Shown here: positions 36,149 to 64,000 of the stretch, piece after piece
Layout: the number at the start of each line of letters is the position of its first letter
Position numbering within the stretch: the first letter of the stretch is position 1
Assembly: GCA_965223845.1 (NCBI GenBank)
Contig: CBDCXR010000004.1
Location: 7,232,001-7,296,000, forward strand
Source of the DNA: Planctomycetota bacterium
GTDB taxonomy: Bacteria; Planctomycetota; UBA8108; SXIK01
Length of the DNA stretch: 64,000 nt
Reading direction: 5' to 3'
Program-made: the position numbers and the translations under genes
Notes under the pieces: generated by a model
What the model saw: the letters and a program-made list of their open reading frames with translations, nothing else
The model's database searches: none
What the model was told of the DNA's origin: nothing

Positions 36149-38146
36149 ATGAACGCCCCGACCTACTCTCGATTCGGACCCGCGGAGACTTCGCGCACGC
36201 GCGGAATCTCTCTCCGCGGCGTCGGACCCGCTCCGGGGCGAGACGGCGGCATCGCGCTCCTCCTCGTGCTCATCATTTTCATCGTGCTCTACCTCGTCGT
36301 GTTTCAGCTCCACTTCACCACGAAGATGGAGCAGAAGATCGCGCAAGTGCGCTACGCCGAGGTGGAGGCAGGCTCCGGACTGTTCTCGGCGGCGCTCTAC
36401 GTGAAGACCCTCCTCATGGAGGACCTGCGGCAGGATCTCGGCGAGGCCGGTGCGCAGAGCGGAGCGGGCGCGATGGGCGGTGCCCCCGGCGTCGCGCCGC
36501 CCGCGGGGCCGAGCGCTCCGGGCGGGCAGGGATTCGCCATGCCGGTCGACTCGGGCGCGGCGGCCGCCATGGCGGGCGGTGCCTCGACGTCGGTGAAGTG
36601 GTACGACTCCCTGCGCGAGAACCTCTTTCTCCCAAACGTCCAAAGCGTCGGCAACGTCGAGGTGAAGCTCCGCGTGATCGATGGCGAGCGTCGCTACGAC
36701 CTCAATCGCCTCTTCGACTACGTCCGCCTTCGGGAAGAGGAGGTCGCCGAAGGTACGGAAGACCTGCGCGAGGAAGACCTCGTCGACGCCGTCGAAGGGC
36801 GGAGCACCGAAGACGCCGAGGCGAGTCTTCGCGAGCGCTTCCTCGCCCGCGCCGACGAGCGCCAGCGCGCCAACCGGAGAGGCGTCGCCGCGGACGGCGA
36901 GGAAGGGAGCGAGGGCATGGAGGAGCTGCGGCGCGACGCGAGCGGAGCCACGGCCGTCGCGCTCGACGATCTCGATTCCTACGAGCCGGAGCCGCCGTTC
37001 CTCGAGCCGGCGCCGTCCCGCCTCCTTGCGACCGAAGAGATGCTCCGTCGCGCGATCCTCATGATGTTCACCATCAACGAAGACAACGGCTACCTCTACT
37101 CGCAGAAGCACTTCGCCGAGAACGTCGCGCAGGCGATCGTCCAGTACGTCGTCGAACGACGGCTCGAAGATTTCAACAACCGCATCCTGAGCGTGAGCGA
37201 ATTGCTCCAGCTCGACGAAGTGACGCCGGAGGTGTTCTACGGGCCCGTTCCGGATATTCCCGACGGGGAGGAGGCCGCGTTCGGCGATGTGATCCTCTCC
37301 CGCGATCGTTTCGGCGACCTCTCCGCGCGGTTCGCCTTCGACGACGAATACACCGACGACGCCGAGGCCGAGCGCCAAGAGGAGATCGCGCACCTCATGG
37401 AGCAATACGGCCGATTCGCGAACCTTCCGATCGGAATCGGCGCCGATCGACTCGCGGCGACGAGCCTCACCCGCGGCATGGAGGACTGGACGGTCGTTCT
37501 CGACGAGAACGAACAGGAGATGGTCCTCGATCCTCCCGTCCCGATCGGACTTCGGGATCTCTTTACGACGTTCTCGACCGGAAAGATCAATCTCAACTCG
37601 GCCAGTGCGCCGGTCATTTTCGGACTCTTGCTCTCGCTCGACGAGGAAGAGGGGAAAAACGTCGCTTACGGCATCGAGGATTATCGCAACCGCTTCCAGG
37701 AGGAGATGGATCCCGAAAGCGGCGTCGACCGCGTCGACGGCGCCGATACGCTCGATCTAGGACAACCGCGCCGGGAGCCTCCCCTCGATCCGACGACTCT
37801 CAGTGAAGAAGAAGCCAGTCTAGAAGCCGAATACCAGGACATGGAGACGAACTACTTTACGAGTCTCCAGCAGATCGAGCTGATCGACGGATCCGACCAG
37901 GGCCCAGAGGACCTCTTGCGCAGCGACGAGGGCGTGGAGCGCACCGACGCGGAGGGCGACACTCTCTACCGGCGCGTCCTCTTCGACCTCGAGAAGGTCG
38001 TCGTCTTCGGGAGCTCGTACTTCGAAGTGCTGATGAAGGCTGTCTCGCCGGAGAACCGTGCGGTCAAAACCGCGTCGGTGACCCTCCATCGCGACGTGAA
38101 GCGCAGCCTTCTCGAAGTGGTGATGTGGAAGGAGGAGCGCAAGTGA
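36149..38146 (+). CDS. GspK-like minor pseudopilin, enlarged by acidic insertions
   Basis: Class III signal RDG/GIALLLVLIIF lacking Glu5 as in GspK; DGERRYDLN and GKINLNSAS motifs; FTSLQQIELI; SSYFEV. Confidence 0.75.
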   Translation: MNAPTYSRFGPAETSRTRGISLRGVGPAPGRDGGIALLLVLIIFIVLYLVVFQLHFTTKMEQKIAQVRYAEVEAGSGLFSAALYVKTLLMEDLRQDLGEAGAQSGAGAMGGAPGVAPPAGPSAPGGQGFAMPVDSGAAAAMAGGASTSVKWYDSLRENLFLPNVQSVGNVEVKLRVIDGERRYDLNRLFDYVRLREEEVAEGTEDLREEDLVDAVEGRSTEDAEASLRERFLARADERQRANRRGVAADGEEGSEGMEELRRDASGATAVALDDLDSYEPEPPFLEPAPSRLLATEEMLRRAILMMFTINEDNGYLYSQKHFAENVAQAIVQYVVERRLEDFNNRILSVSELLQLDEVTPEVFYGPVPDIPDGEEAAFGDVILSRDRFGDLSARFAFDDEYTDDAEAERQEEIAHLMEQYGRFANLPIGIGADRLAATSLTRGMEDWTVVLDENEQEMVLDPPVPIGLRDLFTTFSTGKINLNSASAPVIFGLLLSLDEEEGKNVAYGIEDYRNRFQEEMDPESGVDRVDGADTLDLGQPRREPPLDPTTLSEEEASLEAEYQDMETNYFTSLQQIELIDGSDQGPEDLLRSDEGVERTDAEGDTLYRRVLFDLEKVVVFGSSYFEVLMKAVSPENRAVKTASVTLHRDVKRSLLEVVMWKEERK

Positions 38147-38193
38147 CTGCGATCTCCACCCTAGTTGTCGATCCCGAGCGAAGGAGCTGACCC

Positions 38194-62624: not shown

Positions 62625-62682
62625 CGGAATCGAATCTCCCTTCGCCGCGTCGAAGCCCGCGCCTGGCGGCGGCTGCGCGCGG

Positions 62683-64000
62683 TCATTGTGGGGTGATCGC
62701 GTAGGATTTCAACTTCGAGTAGAGCGTGCAGCGTTCGATCCCGAGGATCTCCGCCGCGCGCTTTTTGTTTCCGCCGGTGTGCTCGAGAACGCGCTCGATG
62801 TGTTGCTTCTCGAGCTCGGAGAGGCTGATGGGCTCCCAGGCGCCGCCGACTCCCGCGCGCCGCGGACTCGCAGCCGGGAGGATGAGATCCTCCGGCCGGA
62901 TGTCGTCGCCCTCGCCGAGGACGACCGCGCTCTCGATGACGTTTCGGAGTTGACGCACGTTCCCCGGCCAAGAGTACGTCGCTAGTTTCTTTTCGGCCGT
63001 TTTCGTCAGTTTCTTCTTCGCGCCGCAGCGCTCGAGGAGGAAATGATCGACGAGGGGCGGAATGTCCTCCCGGCGCTCCCGAAGCGGAGGGATCTCCACC
63101 GCGAGCACGTTCAGGCGATAATAGAGGTCCTCGCGAAAGCGGCCGGCGTCGACCTCGGCGAGGAGATCGCGGTTCGTCGCGGCGACCACGCGCACGTCGA
63201 CTTGGATCGACTCGGATCCGCCGACGCGCTCGAAGCAGCGCTCTTCGAGAAGCCGGAGAAGCTTCGCTTGGCAGCCGAGGCTCAGCTCTCCGATTTCATC
63301 GAGAAACACGGTGCCGCCCTCGGCGAGCTCGAAGCGCCCCTTTCGACGCGACACGGCACTCGTGAACGCTCCCTTCTCGTGGCCGAAGAGCTCGCTCTCG
63401 ACCAAGTTTTCGGGAAGCGCGGCGCAGTTGATCGCAACGAGAGGTTTTCCGCGCCGCGGACTCGCGTAGTGGAGCGCGGAGGCGACGAGTTCTTTCCCCG
63501 TGCCGGTCTCACCGTGGATGAGAACCGTCATCGGCGTCGGGGCGGCGCGCTCGATGAACTTGAGACACTGCTCGATCGCGGGCGACTGCCCGATGATGCG
63601 CTTCGTTTCGGTGAGGCTGCGAAAGAGGTTCCGGTTCTCGTCGCGGAGCCGCTCTTCCTCGAGAAGACGATCGAGAAGCGGTGCGGCGGGTGTGAGGCTG
63701 TCGGCGAGGAGCGCGAGATCTTCGTCTCCAAACGAGTCCTCGACGCCGCGGCGATCGGCGTAGACGACCGCCCGGACGCTCCCTCCGCTGACGAGCGGAA
63801 TCGCGATCGCGGTCGTAATCTCCGCTTCCGCGATGCTTCGACTCTCGCGCAGCTTCTCGTCGTCGCGCGGGTTCGCGACGAGCATCGCTTCGCCCGTCGC
63901 CGCCGCGCGCTCGACGACCGCGTGGCTGAACGCCTCCGCGTCGGGCGCGTCGCTCGGATACCGAGCGCGCGCGGACCAAGTCTCCCCTTCGAGGACGACG
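62683..64000 (-). CDS. Sigma54-dependent transcriptional activator (GAF-AAA+-Fis HTH), 5' truncated by window edge
   Basis: GAF-like AIPL...VYAD; GETGTGKEL, NCAALPE, ESELFGHEKGAFTSA, FLDEIGE, FREDLYYRL, WPGNVRQL and C-terminal HTH; frame open to the window end. Confidence 0.93.
   Translation of the reverse strand, partial: VVLEGETWSARARYPSDAPDAEAFSHAVVERAAATGEAMLVANPRDDEKLRESRSIAEAEITTAIAIPLVSGGSVRAVVYADRRGVEDSFGDEDLALLADSLTPAAPLLDRLLEEERLRDENRNLFRSLTETKRIIGQSPAIEQCLKFIERAAPTPMTVLIHGETGTGKELVASALHYASPRRGKPLVAINCAALPENLVESELFGHEKGAFTSAVSRRKGRFELAEGGTVFLDEIGELSLGCQAKLLRLLEERCFERVGGSESIQVDVRVVAATNRDLLAEVDAGRFREDLYYRLNVLAVEIPPLRERREDIPPLVDHFLLERCGAKKKLTKTAEKKLATYSWPGNVRQLRNVIESAVVLGEGDDIRPEDLILPAASPRRAGVGGAWEPISLSELEKQHIERVLEHTGGNKKRAAEILGIERCTLYSKLKSYAITPQ

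What the first reader, a model, noticed from the sequence alone, without database searches (positions are those of the whole stretch)
36149..64000. Split T2SS-like cluster enclosing a kelch-lipoprotein / anchored HEAT-protein array: candidate dedicated surface-display system
Seen: gspK-?-gspL-gspM (+) and gspDEFGHIJ (-) converge on a 9.5-kb block ordered kelch A, HEAT, kelch B, kelch relic, HEAT, kelch C. All three intact kelch genes carry lipoboxes. Each HEAT protein has an N-terminal TM helix, a Pro-rich linker and an alpha-helical domain. Established: T2SSs export folded lipoproteins to the surface (Klebsiella pullulanase, encoded beside its pul genes), and lipase foldases (Lif) are TM-linker-helical chaperones encoded directly downstream of their T2SS substrate. 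Inference: the kelch propellers are the cognate cargo (adhesin, lectin or enzyme) and the HEAT protein is a Lif-like foldase or retention partner, all under one sigma54 activator. I know of no description of this module.
Basis: partly seen in the sequence, partly recalled or inferred. Interest (0 to 1): 0.8.

Follow-up and report, generated by a model that had tools for sequence, protein, structure and literature searches.

The report
Secretion gene cluster with embedded kelch–HEAT trio
An uncultured group of planctomycete bacteria always keeps two propeller-shaped lipoproteins and a membrane-anchored helical partner inside its type II secretion gene cluster, probably as the machine's own cargo and chaperone, an arrangement found in no paper searched.

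Summary
The window carries a T2SS-like cluster (gspD-E-F-G-H-I-J on the minus strand, convergent gspK-like/unknown/gspL-like/gspM-like on the plus strand) around kelch lipoprotein genes and TM-anchored HEAT genes. The "array" is a local tandem duplication. In relatives across an uncultured Planctomycetota class the unit is single: gspD..J, kelchC, HEAT, kelchA. gspJ lies directly upstream of kelchC in 34 of 37 loci, and HEAT directly downstream in 28 of 30. Both families are confined to this class among 151 phylum genomes sampled. A complex prediction of kelchC with the HEAT domain scored 0.90 against a best control of 0.00. It uses the kelch family's most conserved loop. Sigma54-type promoter motifs recur before gspD, kelchC and gspK, but not before HEAT. 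Best reading (0.45): kelch lipoproteins are dedicated T2SS cargo and HEAT is a membrane-bound T2SS chaperone or adaptor. It is not a Lif family member. Main rival (0.3): the trio is a structural accessory of the machine. One family keeps HEAT and kelchA but has no kelchC in the cluster. Nothing shows secretion. New variant of a known kind; interest moderate to high.

The parts
62683..63885 (-). sigma54-dependent activator (partial GAF, AAA+, Fis-type HTH)
   Evidence: Pfam Sigma54_activat 1.9e-72, HTH_8. Found upstream of gspD in all 10 relatives fetched.
   Evidence: Weak Pfam Secretin_N, E 2e-4, below cut-off. tblastn finds it upstream of gspD in 4 loci of families f1 and f2. Atlas lead to GspD-N0/Secretin_N clusters, score 0.91.
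61094..61108 (-). sigma54-type -24/-12 motif before gspD (9 of 10 consensus bases)
   Evidence: A like motif occurs in 27 of 30 distinct gspD upstream regions, against 1 of 30 on the opposite strand.
58301..61033 (-). gspD secretin
   Evidence: Pfam Secretin 1.1e-37 and Secretin_N; TIGR02517 at 265 bits, below its cut-off of 351.
56516..58216 (-). gspE ATPase
   Evidence: Pfam T2SSE 7e-130, MshEN.
55273..56511 (-). gspF platform protein
   Evidence: Pfam T2SSF 2.2e-67.
54438..54899 (-). gspG major pseudopilin
   Evidence: Pfam T2SSG 2.4e-13, N_methyl.
53784..54389 (-). gspH-like minor pseudopilin
   Evidence: N_methyl; TIGR01708 1.5e-10, below cut-off.
53179..53790 (-). gspI-like minor pseudopilin. 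The ORF runs to 54156; the true start is probably near 53790.
   Evidence: N_methyl at residues 150-171 of the ORF; TIGR01707 1.1e-3, below cut-off.
51905..53089 (-). gspJ-like minor pseudopilin with a Gly/Arg-rich tail
   Evidence: N_methyl; sequence. Conserved directly upstream of kelchC in 34 of 37 loci.
49500..51398 (-). kelchC, a lipoprotein with a seven-blade-type kelch propeller
   Evidence: Pfam Kelch_4/Kelch_6. Lipobox Cys34. Model pLDDT 82.6. Best fold match galactose oxidase propeller: Z 22.5, rmsd 3.2, 354 aligned.
48277..49362 (-). HEAT2: N-terminal TM helix, Pro-rich linker, HEAT domain
   Evidence: Pfam HEAT_2 9.4e-20. Protein identical to HEAT1.
48021..48035 (-). sigma54-type -24/-12 motif before kelchB (8 of 10)
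   Evidence: A like motif occurs before kelchC-family genes in 43 of 53 distinct regions, against 4 of 53 on the opposite strand.
46030..47910 (-). kelchB, a paralogue of kelchC. The ORF runs to 48024; the likely ATG is at 47910.
   Evidence: 94.5% DNA identity to kelchC over 1814 nt without gaps. dN/dS 0.13.
45725..45850 (-). relic of a kelch 3' end
   Evidence: About 75% DNA identity to the kelchB and kelchC 3' ends. 59% protein identity over residues 574-628.
44564..45649 (-). HEAT1
   Evidence: Pfam HEAT_2 8.9e-20. Residues 85-361 are predicted to bind kelchC.
41864..44353 (-). kelchA: lipoprotein with N-terminal beta-rich domains and a kelch propeller
   Evidence: Kelch_4. Cys48 invariant in 20 of 20 rows. 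Model pLDDT 78.9. Galactose oxidase propeller: Z 27.8, rmsd 3.0, 343 aligned.
41229..41786 (+). gspM-like small TM protein, assigned by position and size only
   Evidence: No family hit. Conserved next to gspL in the closest relatives.
39355..41220 (+). gspL-like protein with a PilM-type N-domain
   Evidence: Pfam PilM_2 9e-12; TIGR01709 3.4e-9, below cut-off.
38194..39243 (+). unknown TM protein between gspK and gspL
   Evidence: No family hit. Atlas leads to XpsN and T2SSC score under 0.9.
36149..38146 (+). gspK-like protein with acidic inserts
   Evidence: No Pfam or NCBIfam hit. The only PDB profile hit is XcpX/GspK, E 0.34. Hydrophobic N-terminal segment.
35893..35907 (+). sigma54-type -24/-12 motif before gspK (8 of 10)
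   Evidence: A like motif occurs in 7 of 8 distinct gspK upstream regions, against 1 of 8 on the opposite strand.

Best explanation
The cluster encodes a T2SS-type machine plus its own substrate-and-chaperone module. This module is conserved across one uncultured class of Planctomycetota.

Proposed sequence of events:
1. KelchC, its local duplicate kelchB, and probably kelchA are exported by Sec and lipidated.
2. At the inner membrane they are bound by the HEAT protein, which is anchored there by its N-terminal helix and reaches them through a Pro-rich linker.
3. The HEAT solenoid grips a conserved acidic loop on the kelchC propeller (D-T-[DN]-x-[ED]-G-[DN]) and the C-terminal blade.
4. HEAT thereby holds, folds or presents the lipoprotein to the T2SS, which moves it to the outer membrane or cell surface.
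5. There the propeller acts as a binding platform.

The T2SS genes and the kelch operon are switched on together by the adjacent sigma54 activator.

Shown here: gene content, class-wide synteny, the lipobox and TM features, and the sigma54 motifs.
Predicted here: the kelchC-HEAT complex.
Inferred only: cargo status, the direction of transport, surface exposure, and the role of kelchA.
For: 1. Synteny. All 10 of 10 relatives fetched, from four families, show gspD-E-F-G-H-(I)-J, kelchC, HEAT, kelchA. In 45 species-representative loci, which overlap those genomes: gspJ lies directly upstream in 34 of 37 loci with at least 2.5 kb upstream; HEAT lies directly downstream in 28 of 30; kelchA follows in 23 of 25.

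2. Class restriction. Full-length kelchC (over 500 bits) is found in 8 of 8 in-class genomes and in 0 of 143 other Planctomycetota (at most 64 bits). HEAT scores at least 339 bits in 7 of 8 in-class genomes (the eighth is cut by a contig end) and at most 89 bits elsewhere.

3. Complex prediction. KelchC 35-632 with HEAT 85-361 gives ipSAE 0.90, 0.91 and 0.90; the best of 3 controls is 0.00. That mark was reached by 116 of 157 solved complexes and 2 of 215 mismatched pairs. The runs share at least 91% of contacts and the partner pLDDT is at least 91. The lowest-error contacts are on kelchC residues 131-137, the family's most conserved motif.

4. Chaperone features. HEAT fits the sequence-readable features of a 'T2SS chaperone' as defined in PMC4713064 (passages read): encoded next to the effector, N-terminal TM helix (28 of 28), and a C-terminal domain outside the cytoplasm.

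5. Operon structure. There is no sigma54 motif between kelchC and HEAT (3 of 41, against a control of 5 of 41), but there is one before kelchC (43 of 53, control 4 of 53). This fits a kelchC-HEAT operon co-regulated with gspD (27 of 30) and gspK (7 of 8).

6. Cargo-like behaviour.
- Copy number varies: a tandem pair in G000 and in G036, and several copies in G021, G048 and G005.
- Extra-cluster paralogues lack the lipobox Cys and carry He_PIG Ig domains.
- Extra-cluster paralogues in the alignment keep the interface loop and have no HEAT gene of their own.
- PMC4713064 reports that P. aeruginosa LipB also serves a second, distant lipase.

7. Both local kelch copies are under purifying selection (dN/dS 0.13).
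Against: - No experiment or expression data. No RNA run was found.
- The trio is present, in a fixed place, in every in-class family examined except f7, whose one genome (G044, 79% complete) matched neither kelchC nor HEAT. The families with the trio include 2.7-3 Mb genomes. This pattern suits a machine part as well as a cargo.
- In family f5 (G022, G024, G028) gspD..J is followed by HEAT and a divergent kelchA with no kelchC between them. HEAT is therefore not simply paired with kelchC.
- No catalytic or ligand site was identified in either propeller. The fold matches are generic.
- Interface residues are only slightly more conserved than the rest of each protein (0.56 vs 0.52, p 0.14; 0.56 vs 0.50, p 0.056).
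- The complex score is a model's confidence. My own alignments were used, so the calibration holds only roughly.
- HEAT has no sequence relation to Lif.
Confidence: 0.45

Rival explanations
1. The trio is a structural or assembly accessory of this lineage's T2SS. The inner-membrane HEAT protein, with its long linker, and the kelch lipoproteins (in the outer membrane's inner leaflet) would form an envelope-spanning scaffold or a pilotin-like factor for the secretin or the assembly platform. They would stand in for missing GspC, GspS, GspB or GspN functions.
For: - The trio holds a fixed position, usually in single copy, in every in-class family except the single f7 genome (G044, 79% complete), which matched neither protein.
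- HEAT and kelchA stay with gspD..J in f5 where kelchC is not in the cluster.
- No GspC, GspS or GspN family hit was found in the window.
- KelchC divergence across the class (33-35% identity) is close to that of GspD (about 37%) and the pseudopilins.
- The predicted stable complex fits a permanent assembly as well as a transient one.
- No enzymatic site was seen.
Against: - Tandem and dispersed duplication of kelchC, and paralogues without a lipobox that carry Ig-type domains, are unusual for machine parts.
- p349 and the secretin-N-like p362 are other candidates for the missing functions.
- The trio has its own sigma54 motif in most relatives.
- T2SS clusters of three other Planctomycetota classes lack kelch and HEAT genes, so the core machine does not need them.
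Confidence: 0.3
2. KelchC is a PilY1-like propeller that rides on the minor-pseudopilin tip as an adhesin or sensor. HEAT would be its periplasmic holder before loading.
For: - KelchC is encoded directly after gspH-I-J, as PilY1 is encoded with the minor pilins (recalled).
- PMC7248040 (passages read) states that PilY1 is an adhesin interacting with the minor-pilin tip complex.
- It has a propeller fold.
- Its conserved D-x-[DN]-x-[ED]-G loop resembles DxDxDG calcium loops such as the one reported for PilY1 (recalled, not tested).
Against: - The lipobox Cys is conserved in 34 of 36 rows, which argues for membrane anchoring rather than a filament tip.
- There is no Pfam match to the PilC/PilY1 family.
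- PilY1 is not among the 50 best fold matches (not decisive).
- A GspK-like cap is present.
- No retraction ATPase is in the cluster.
Confidence: 0.08
3. The kelch-HEAT-kelch operon is an envelope complex with a function of its own, for example nutrient or glycan binding in the periplasm. It would merely share a sigma54 regulon and an old neighbourhood with the T2SS, without passing through or building it.
For: - It has its own promoter-like motif.
- A GC-rich hairpin with a U run follows gspJ, though it is weak (z -1.58).
- Genus g5 shows that parts of the cluster (gspK-L-M) can move away.
Against: - Adjacency to gspJ is kept in 34 of 37 loci across at least four families, at protein identities down to about 33%. 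Such conservation of order over that divergence usually reflects a functional link (inference).
- Both families occur only where this T2SS type occurs among the genomes sampled.
Confidence: 0.12

Closest known systems
Membrane-bound T2SS chaperones: Lif/LipB for lipase LipA, CpaB for protease CpaA (PMC4713064, passages read)
   Same: The partner gene sits next to the substrate gene. It has a single N-terminal TM helix and a periplasmic domain that binds the substrate. One chaperone can also serve a distant second substrate.
   Different: The HEAT domain is a PBS-lyase-type alpha-solenoid, not a Lif (Lipase_chap) or SRPBCC domain. The presumed substrates are lipoproteins with kelch propellers. 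The pair sits inside the T2SS cluster and is conserved class-wide. A requirement for secretion has not been tested.
Klebsiella pullulanase PulA with the pul T2SS genes (recalled, no paper read)
   Same: A lipoprotein substrate is encoded beside the T2SS that carries it to the surface.
   Different: PulA is an enzyme without a dedicated TM-anchored partner. Here there are two propeller lipoproteins plus a HEAT partner, and secretion has not been shown.
Shewanella vesiculosa HM13 P49 and its non-canonical T2SS-like cluster (PMC6971210, abstract read)
   Same: The gene for a single major cargo lies just downstream of a dedicated T2SS-like gene cluster, which exists beside another system. The genome here also has a second secretin cluster.
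   Different: P49 is loaded onto membrane vesicles and is unrelated in sequence class. No HEAT-type partner is mentioned in the abstract.
PilY1 with the type IVa minor pilins (PMC7248040, passages read; fold and calcium site recalled)
   Same: A propeller-type protein is encoded after minor (pseudo)pilin genes.
   Different: KelchC has a lipobox and no PilC/PilY1 family match, and the system is T2SS-like with a GspK-like cap.
TPR lipoprotein pilotins of secretins (PilF, PilW, Tgl) and scaffold GspB/OutB (PMC9239104, search listing only; the rest recalled)
   Same: Helical-repeat or lipoprotein accessories encoded with secretin systems; they help assemble or anchor the secretin.
   Different: Here the helical-repeat protein is TM-anchored, not lipidated. 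The lipoproteins are large propellers. No link to the secretin was tested.

Membership tests
Type II secretion system (Gsp) | Secretin GspD, ATPase GspE, platform GspF | tested here: met
   Pfam Secretin 1.1e-37, T2SSE 7e-130, T2SSF 2.2e-67. TIGR02517 gspD scores 265 bits, below its cut-off of 351.
Type II secretion system (Gsp) | Major pseudopilin GspG and minor pseudopilins H, I, J with a prepilin motif | tested here: met
   T2SSG 2.4e-13. N_methyl in four consecutive genes. The gspH and gspI equivalog models match below their cut-offs.
Type II secretion system (Gsp) | GspK cap pseudopilin | tested here: inconclusive
   No Pfam or NCBIfam hit. A profile of 20 homologues finds only XcpX/GspK in the PDB, at E 0.34.
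Type II secretion system (Gsp) | Assembly platform GspL, GspM, GspC | tested here: inconclusive
   GspL: PilM_2 9e-12 and TIGR01709 at 36 bits, below its cut-off of 65. The gspM-like protein and p349 have no significant hit; the atlas gives only leads.
Type II secretion system (Gsp) | Secretion of folded periplasmic proteins across the outer membrane | not testable with these tools
   Needs a cultured or heterologous system.
Lipase-specific foldase (Lif, Pfam Lipase_chap) | Sequence membership in the Lif family | tested here: not met
   The Pfam scan of both HEAT proteins lists only HEAT families at E<=0.01. The PDB profile search lists alphaRep/HEAT proteins; no Lif is listed.
T2SS chaperone as defined in PMC4713064 | Encoded adjacent to, and co-regulated with, the effector | tested here: met
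   HEAT lies directly downstream of kelchC in 28 of 30 loci. There is no sigma54 motif between them (3 of 41, control 5 of 41). Whether kelchC is an effector is assumed.
T2SS chaperone as defined in PMC4713064 | N-terminal transmembrane helix with a periplasmic C-terminal domain | tested here: met
   A hydrophobic 19-mer (KD>=1.6) occurs near the N-terminus in 28 of 28 rows. The topology itself is inferred.
T2SS chaperone as defined in PMC4713064 | [quoted passage not shown] | not testable with these tools
   Needs genetics.
Bacterial lipoprotein | Signal peptide ending in a lipobox Cys | tested here: met
   Cys at the aligned column in 34 of 36 kelchC rows and 20 of 20 kelchA rows. A PROSITE-type pattern (recalled) fits 26 of 36 and 16 of 20.
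Kelch beta-propeller | Kelch repeats forming a propeller | tested here: met
   Pfam Kelch_4 and Kelch_6. Fold matches to kelch propellers: Z 20-28.
Galactose oxidase / AA5 copper radical oxidase | Copper site with a Tyr-Cys cross-link and His/Tyr ligands (recalled) | tested here: inconclusive
   This is the best fold match (Z 22.5 and 27.8). However, no invariant Cys other than the lipobox Cys exists in 36 or 20 rows. The ligand positions were not aligned residue by residue.
PilY1 / PilC tip adhesin | PilC/PilY1 family domain | tested here: not met
   No such Pfam family at E<=0.01 for any kelch protein. The absence from the fold list is not decisive.

The most novel reading that the evidence does not exclude
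The HEAT protein is a T2SS-encoded cargo receptor. It recognises one structural signal, the conserved acidic D-T-[DN]-x-[ED]-G-[DN] loop plus the last blade. This signal is shared by the in-cluster kelch lipoproteins and by distant secreted paralogues, and HEAT hands all of them to the machine. That would be a defined targeting signal and adaptor for type II secretion. How this pathway recognises its substrates has long been an open question.
Probability: 0.15. Interest if true: 0.85.

Novelty: new variant of a known kind. Interest (0 to 1): 0.6.

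Why it matters
How type II secretion systems pick their folded substrates is still unclear, and only a few dedicated chaperones are known. This is a whole bacterial class in which one T2SS-type cluster always carries the same three extra genes. There is a confident, testable prediction of which two proteins touch and through which loop.

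If the kelch proteins are cargo, this is a simple natural system (one machine, one chaperone, a small cargo family) for studying recognition. If they are machine parts, they are new T2SS components. They would show how the system was rebuilt in Planctomycetota, whose envelope is unusual. Either way the three families get a first functional context.

Tried and rejected
- Expression: the look-up of sequencing runs listed no RNA holder, so expression and co-transcription could not be examined.
- Literature: four full-text searches gave no paper on this module. Terms were Planctomycetes + type II secretion + kelch; T2SS + Planctomycetota + secretin + pseudopilin; T2SS + beta-propeller + lipoprotein + minor pseudopilin + operon; Planctomycetes + T2SS + gspD + gene cluster. 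Subscription journals and preprint supplements were not covered.
- Lif-like family membership: rejected on sequence.
- Copper oxidase reading: set aside because no invariant Cys exists beyond the lipobox.
- PilY1 does not appear among the 50 best fold matches.
- The ORFs at 61242-62696 (+) and 63043-63999 (+) are probably spurious. They overlap real minus-strand genes and have no Pfam hit; the first also has no NCBIfam hit and no tblastn hit in relatives.
- The terminator scan found nothing after gspJ. The hairpin there folds only weakly better than shuffles (z -1.58).
- Interface conservation test: not significant.
- The N-terminal domains of kelchA (about residues 50-300) were barely covered by the fold search, and the PDB profile search listed no best stretch there.

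Full report
**Observation.** The window is G000:C4:7232001-7296000, from a 7.9-Mb genome in 4 contigs. Pfam and NCBIfam scans confirm these genes on the minus strand:
- a sigma54 activator (62683-63885);
- GspD (58301-61033), GspE (56516-58216), GspF (55273-56511) and GspG (54438-54899);
- three further prepilin-motif genes: H-like (53784-54389), I-like (within 53179-54156) and J-like (51905-53089).

On the plus strand lie a 665-aa protein (36149-38146), a 349-aa TM protein, a PilM/GspL-like protein (39355-41220) and a 185-aa TM protein. The names gspK and gspM rest on weak evidence. Neither has a family hit. For gspK, a profile of 20 homologues finds only XcpX/GspK in the PDB, at E 0.34.

Between the two arms lie kelchA (41864-44353), HEAT1 (44564-45649), a kelch relic, kelchB (46030-48024), HEAT2 (48277-49386) and kelchC (49500-51398). 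All three kelch genes have a lipobox Cys. Both HEAT proteins have an N-terminal hydrophobic helix, a Pro-rich linker and a HEAT_2 domain.

It has weak Secretin_N similarity and is conserved in four loci of families f1 and f2.

**The array is a local duplication.**
- The HEAT copies differ at 1 of 1091 nt.
- KelchB and kelchC are 94.5% identical over 1814 nt without gaps.
- The relic (45725-45850) is about 75% identical to the kelch 3' end.
- KelchB and kelchC have dS 0.175 and dN/dS 0.13, so both are under purifying selection. The near-identity of the HEAT copies suggests gene conversion or a later event.
- Logan unitigs from runs that probably are the source sample give the HEAT unitig about twice the depth of its flanks. 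They contain both junctions without differences. This supports the assembly but is not independent evidence.

**Relatives.** The kelchC protein matches in 59 of 61 related genomes and HEAT in 58 of 61. The misses are G044 (79% complete), G059 and, for HEAT, G032. Record titles identify the group as Planctomycetota MAGs; no cultured member appeared.

In all 10 of 10 relatives whose surroundings I fetched (four families), the order is activator, gspD-E-F-G-H-(I)-J, kelchC, HEAT, kelchA. A convergent gspL and gspK follow in 7 of the 10. The three without them belong to one genus.

In 45 species-representative loci, which overlap those genomes:
- a gspJ-like gene lies directly upstream of kelchC in 34 of 37 loci with enough sequence (exceptions L070, L085, L086);
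- gspE lies upstream in 29 of 30;
- HEAT lies directly downstream in 28 of 30 (exceptions L054, L086);
- kelchA follows in 23 of 25;
- a convergent gspL is present in 19 of 24.

The exceptions L070 and L086 are second, extra-cluster kelchC paralogues. L085 keeps gspE-I upstream but has no gspJ hit. L054 lies on a short contig with no gsp or HEAT hit.

Both families are restricted to this class among the genomes sampled. Full-length kelchC (over 500 bits) occurs in 8 of 8 in-class genomes and in 0 of 143 other Planctomycetota, whose best scores of at most 64 bits are local kelch-repeat hits. HEAT scores at least 339 bits in 7 of 8 in-class genomes (the eighth is cut by a contig end) and at most 89 bits elsewhere. 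T2SS loci of three out-of-class genomes have no kelch or HEAT hit near gspF and gspG.

**An informative exception.** In family f5 (G022, G024, G028), gspD..J is followed directly by a longer HEAT protein (436-446 aa). In G022 a divergent kelchA follows it (hhalign probability 99.7%). No kelchC lies in the cluster. KelchC-like genes of 815-1177 aa sit elsewhere in the genome. HEAT and kelchA are therefore the parts most tightly linked to the T2SS.

**Proteins.**
- *KelchC:* the model has pLDDT 82.6. It is a kelch propeller spanning residues about 56-632. The best match is the galactose oxidase propeller (Z 22.5, rmsd 3.2, 354 aligned), with many kelch and WD40 propellers within a few Z units.
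- *KelchA:* the model has pLDDT 78.9. It has beta-rich N-terminal domains and a similar propeller (Z 27.8, rmsd 3.0, 343 aligned).
- *No enzyme site:* no invariant Cys other than the lipobox Cys exists, so a copper radical oxidase is unlikely. The recurrent P-R-x-x-H motif is a blade repeat (my reading).
- *HEAT:* it belongs to the PBS-lyase/alphaRep type of HEAT repeats. It shows no relation to Lif.

**Complex.** KelchC 35-632 with HEAT 85-361 scored ipSAE 0.90, 0.91 and 0.90; the best of three controls was 0.00. That mark was reached by 116 of 157 solved complexes and 2 of 215 mismatched pairs. The runs share at least 91% of contacts and the partner pLDDT is at least 91. My own alignments were used, so those counts hold only roughly. 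The score is a model's confidence, not a measurement.

The lowest-error contacts lie on kelchC residues 131-137. This is the D-T-[DN]-x-[ED]-G-[DN] loop, the family's most conserved motif. It is also kept in the extra-cluster paralogues in the alignment and in the f5 copy. On HEAT the contacts include or abut invariant residues (E189, A259, Q288, G292, G295). Taken as sets, however, interface residues are only slightly more conserved than the rest of each protein (p 0.14 and 0.056).

**Regulation.** I scanned for a sigma54-type -24/-12 motif, requiring at least 8 of 10 consensus bases with GG and GC fixed. The consensus is recalled. Results in distinct upstream regions, with the opposite strand as control:
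- before gspD: 27 of 30 (control 1 of 30);
- before kelchC-family genes: 43 of 53 (control 4 of 53);
- before gspK: 7 of 8 (control 1 of 8);
- before HEAT: 3 of 41 (control 5 of 41).

In the window the motif stands before gspD (61094-61108), kelchB (48021-48035) and gspK (35893-35907), but not before kelchC. This fits three co-regulated units, with kelchC-HEAT(-kelchA) as one of them.

**Interpretation.** The best-supported reading (0.45) is a dedicated substrate-chaperone module. HEAT has every sequence-readable feature of the 'T2SS chaperone' defined by Harding et al. (PMC4713064, passages read): it is adjacent to the effector, has an N-terminal TM helix, and has a periplasmic domain. That paper notes that one such chaperone can also serve a distant substrate. 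This parallels the extra-cluster kelchC paralogues here. Those I examined have no HEAT gene of their own. The two in the alignment that carry He_PIG Ig domains lack the lipobox Cys. Copy-number variation of kelchC also looks like cargo behaviour.

The main rival (0.3) is a structural or assembly accessory. It is favoured by the presence and fixed position of the trio in every in-class family but f7, by the f5 pattern, and by the lack of recognisable GspC, GspS or GspN proteins. A PilY1-like tip protein (0.08) and an independent envelope complex (0.12) remain possible.

Nothing here shows secretion, surface display or a foldase activity.

**Comparison and novelty.** The closest known systems are:
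- Lif/LipB-LipA and CpaB-CpaA (PMC4713064);
- PulA with the pul genes (recalled);
- the P49 cargo gene downstream of a T2SS-like cluster in Shewanella vesiculosa (PMC6971210, abstract);
- PilY1 with the minor pilins (PMC7248040, passages).

The module differs from all of them in its protein families, in pairing two propeller lipoproteins with a TM-anchored HEAT solenoid, and in its class-wide fixed place inside the cluster. Four full-text searches found no description of it. I rate it a new variant of a known kind, with interest 0.6.

Noticed in passing
window 61536-62624 (-): A 362-aa gene lies between the sigma54 activator and gspD. It has a signal/TM segment and weak Secretin_N-like domains, and is conserved upstream of gspD in four loci of families f1 and f2. 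It may be a stand-alone secretin-N0/N1-like partner of GspD.
   Followed up: partly
window 44563-45653 vs 48276-49366, and 46030-47843 vs 49500-51313: Within one tandem duplication the HEAT copies are 99.9% identical while the kelch copies are 94.5% identical (dS 0.175, dN/dS 0.13). This suggests gene conversion of HEAT or a two-step history. A 126-nt kelch relic marks an older copy.
   Followed up: partly
loci L098, L100, L101 (genomes G022, G024, G028): In one family of the class, gspJ is followed directly by a longer HEAT protein with extra C-terminal repeats (436-446 aa). In G022 a divergent kelchA follows it. KelchC is not in the cluster; kelchC-like genes of 815-1177 aa lie elsewhere.
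   Followed up: partly
loci L030, L031, L033 and L050, L052, L053, L060, L063: In one genus, the gspK-L-M arm is not within the fetched sequence beyond kelchA. The two arms of the cluster can separate, while the trio stays with gspD..J.
   Followed up: no
loci L070 and L110 (also L114): These extra-cluster kelchC paralogues carry a He_PIG Ig-like domain. By eye they also have a dockerin-like N-terminal repeat, which Pfam did not confirm at E<=0.001. L110 and L114 have no Cys at the lipobox column and keep the predicted HEAT-binding loop; L070 was not in that alignment.
   Followed up: partly
G000:C4:5518198-5531524 and C4:7538447-7543385, C4:1540828-1543731: The genome has a second secretin-containing GspE/F/G-like cluster and two further GspE/GspF-like pairs. 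The system in the window is therefore not the only type IV filament-class machine, but it is the only place where the window's GspK-, GspL- and GspM-like proteins match in the genome (tblastn, E<=1e-8).
   Followed up: no
window 51800-51870 (-): A GC-rich hairpin followed by a run of seven U lies just after gspJ. It is a possible terminator separating gspD..J from the kelch operon. It folds only weakly better than shuffles (z -1.58), and the terminator scan did not call it.
   Followed up: partly
window about 42250-42490 (-), kelchA residues about 623-702: KelchA of this genome has a helical insertion of about 80 aa with low confidence. It has repeated helix-turn motifs and is absent from the f5 homologue in the profile alignment.
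   Followed up: no
locus L066 (record titled as a Bacillota MAG): This contig carries the complete planctomycete-type cluster (gspE..J, kelchC, HEAT, kelchA, gspL, gspK). The taxonomic label of the bin is probably wrong, or the contig is misbinned.
   Followed up: no
window 21591-27632 (-): An FG-GAP repeat protein lies next to a DUF1501 and PSD1/PSCyt2 (DUF1553/DUF1549) pair. From memory, such a pair is common in Planctomycetes and of unknown function.
   Followed up: no
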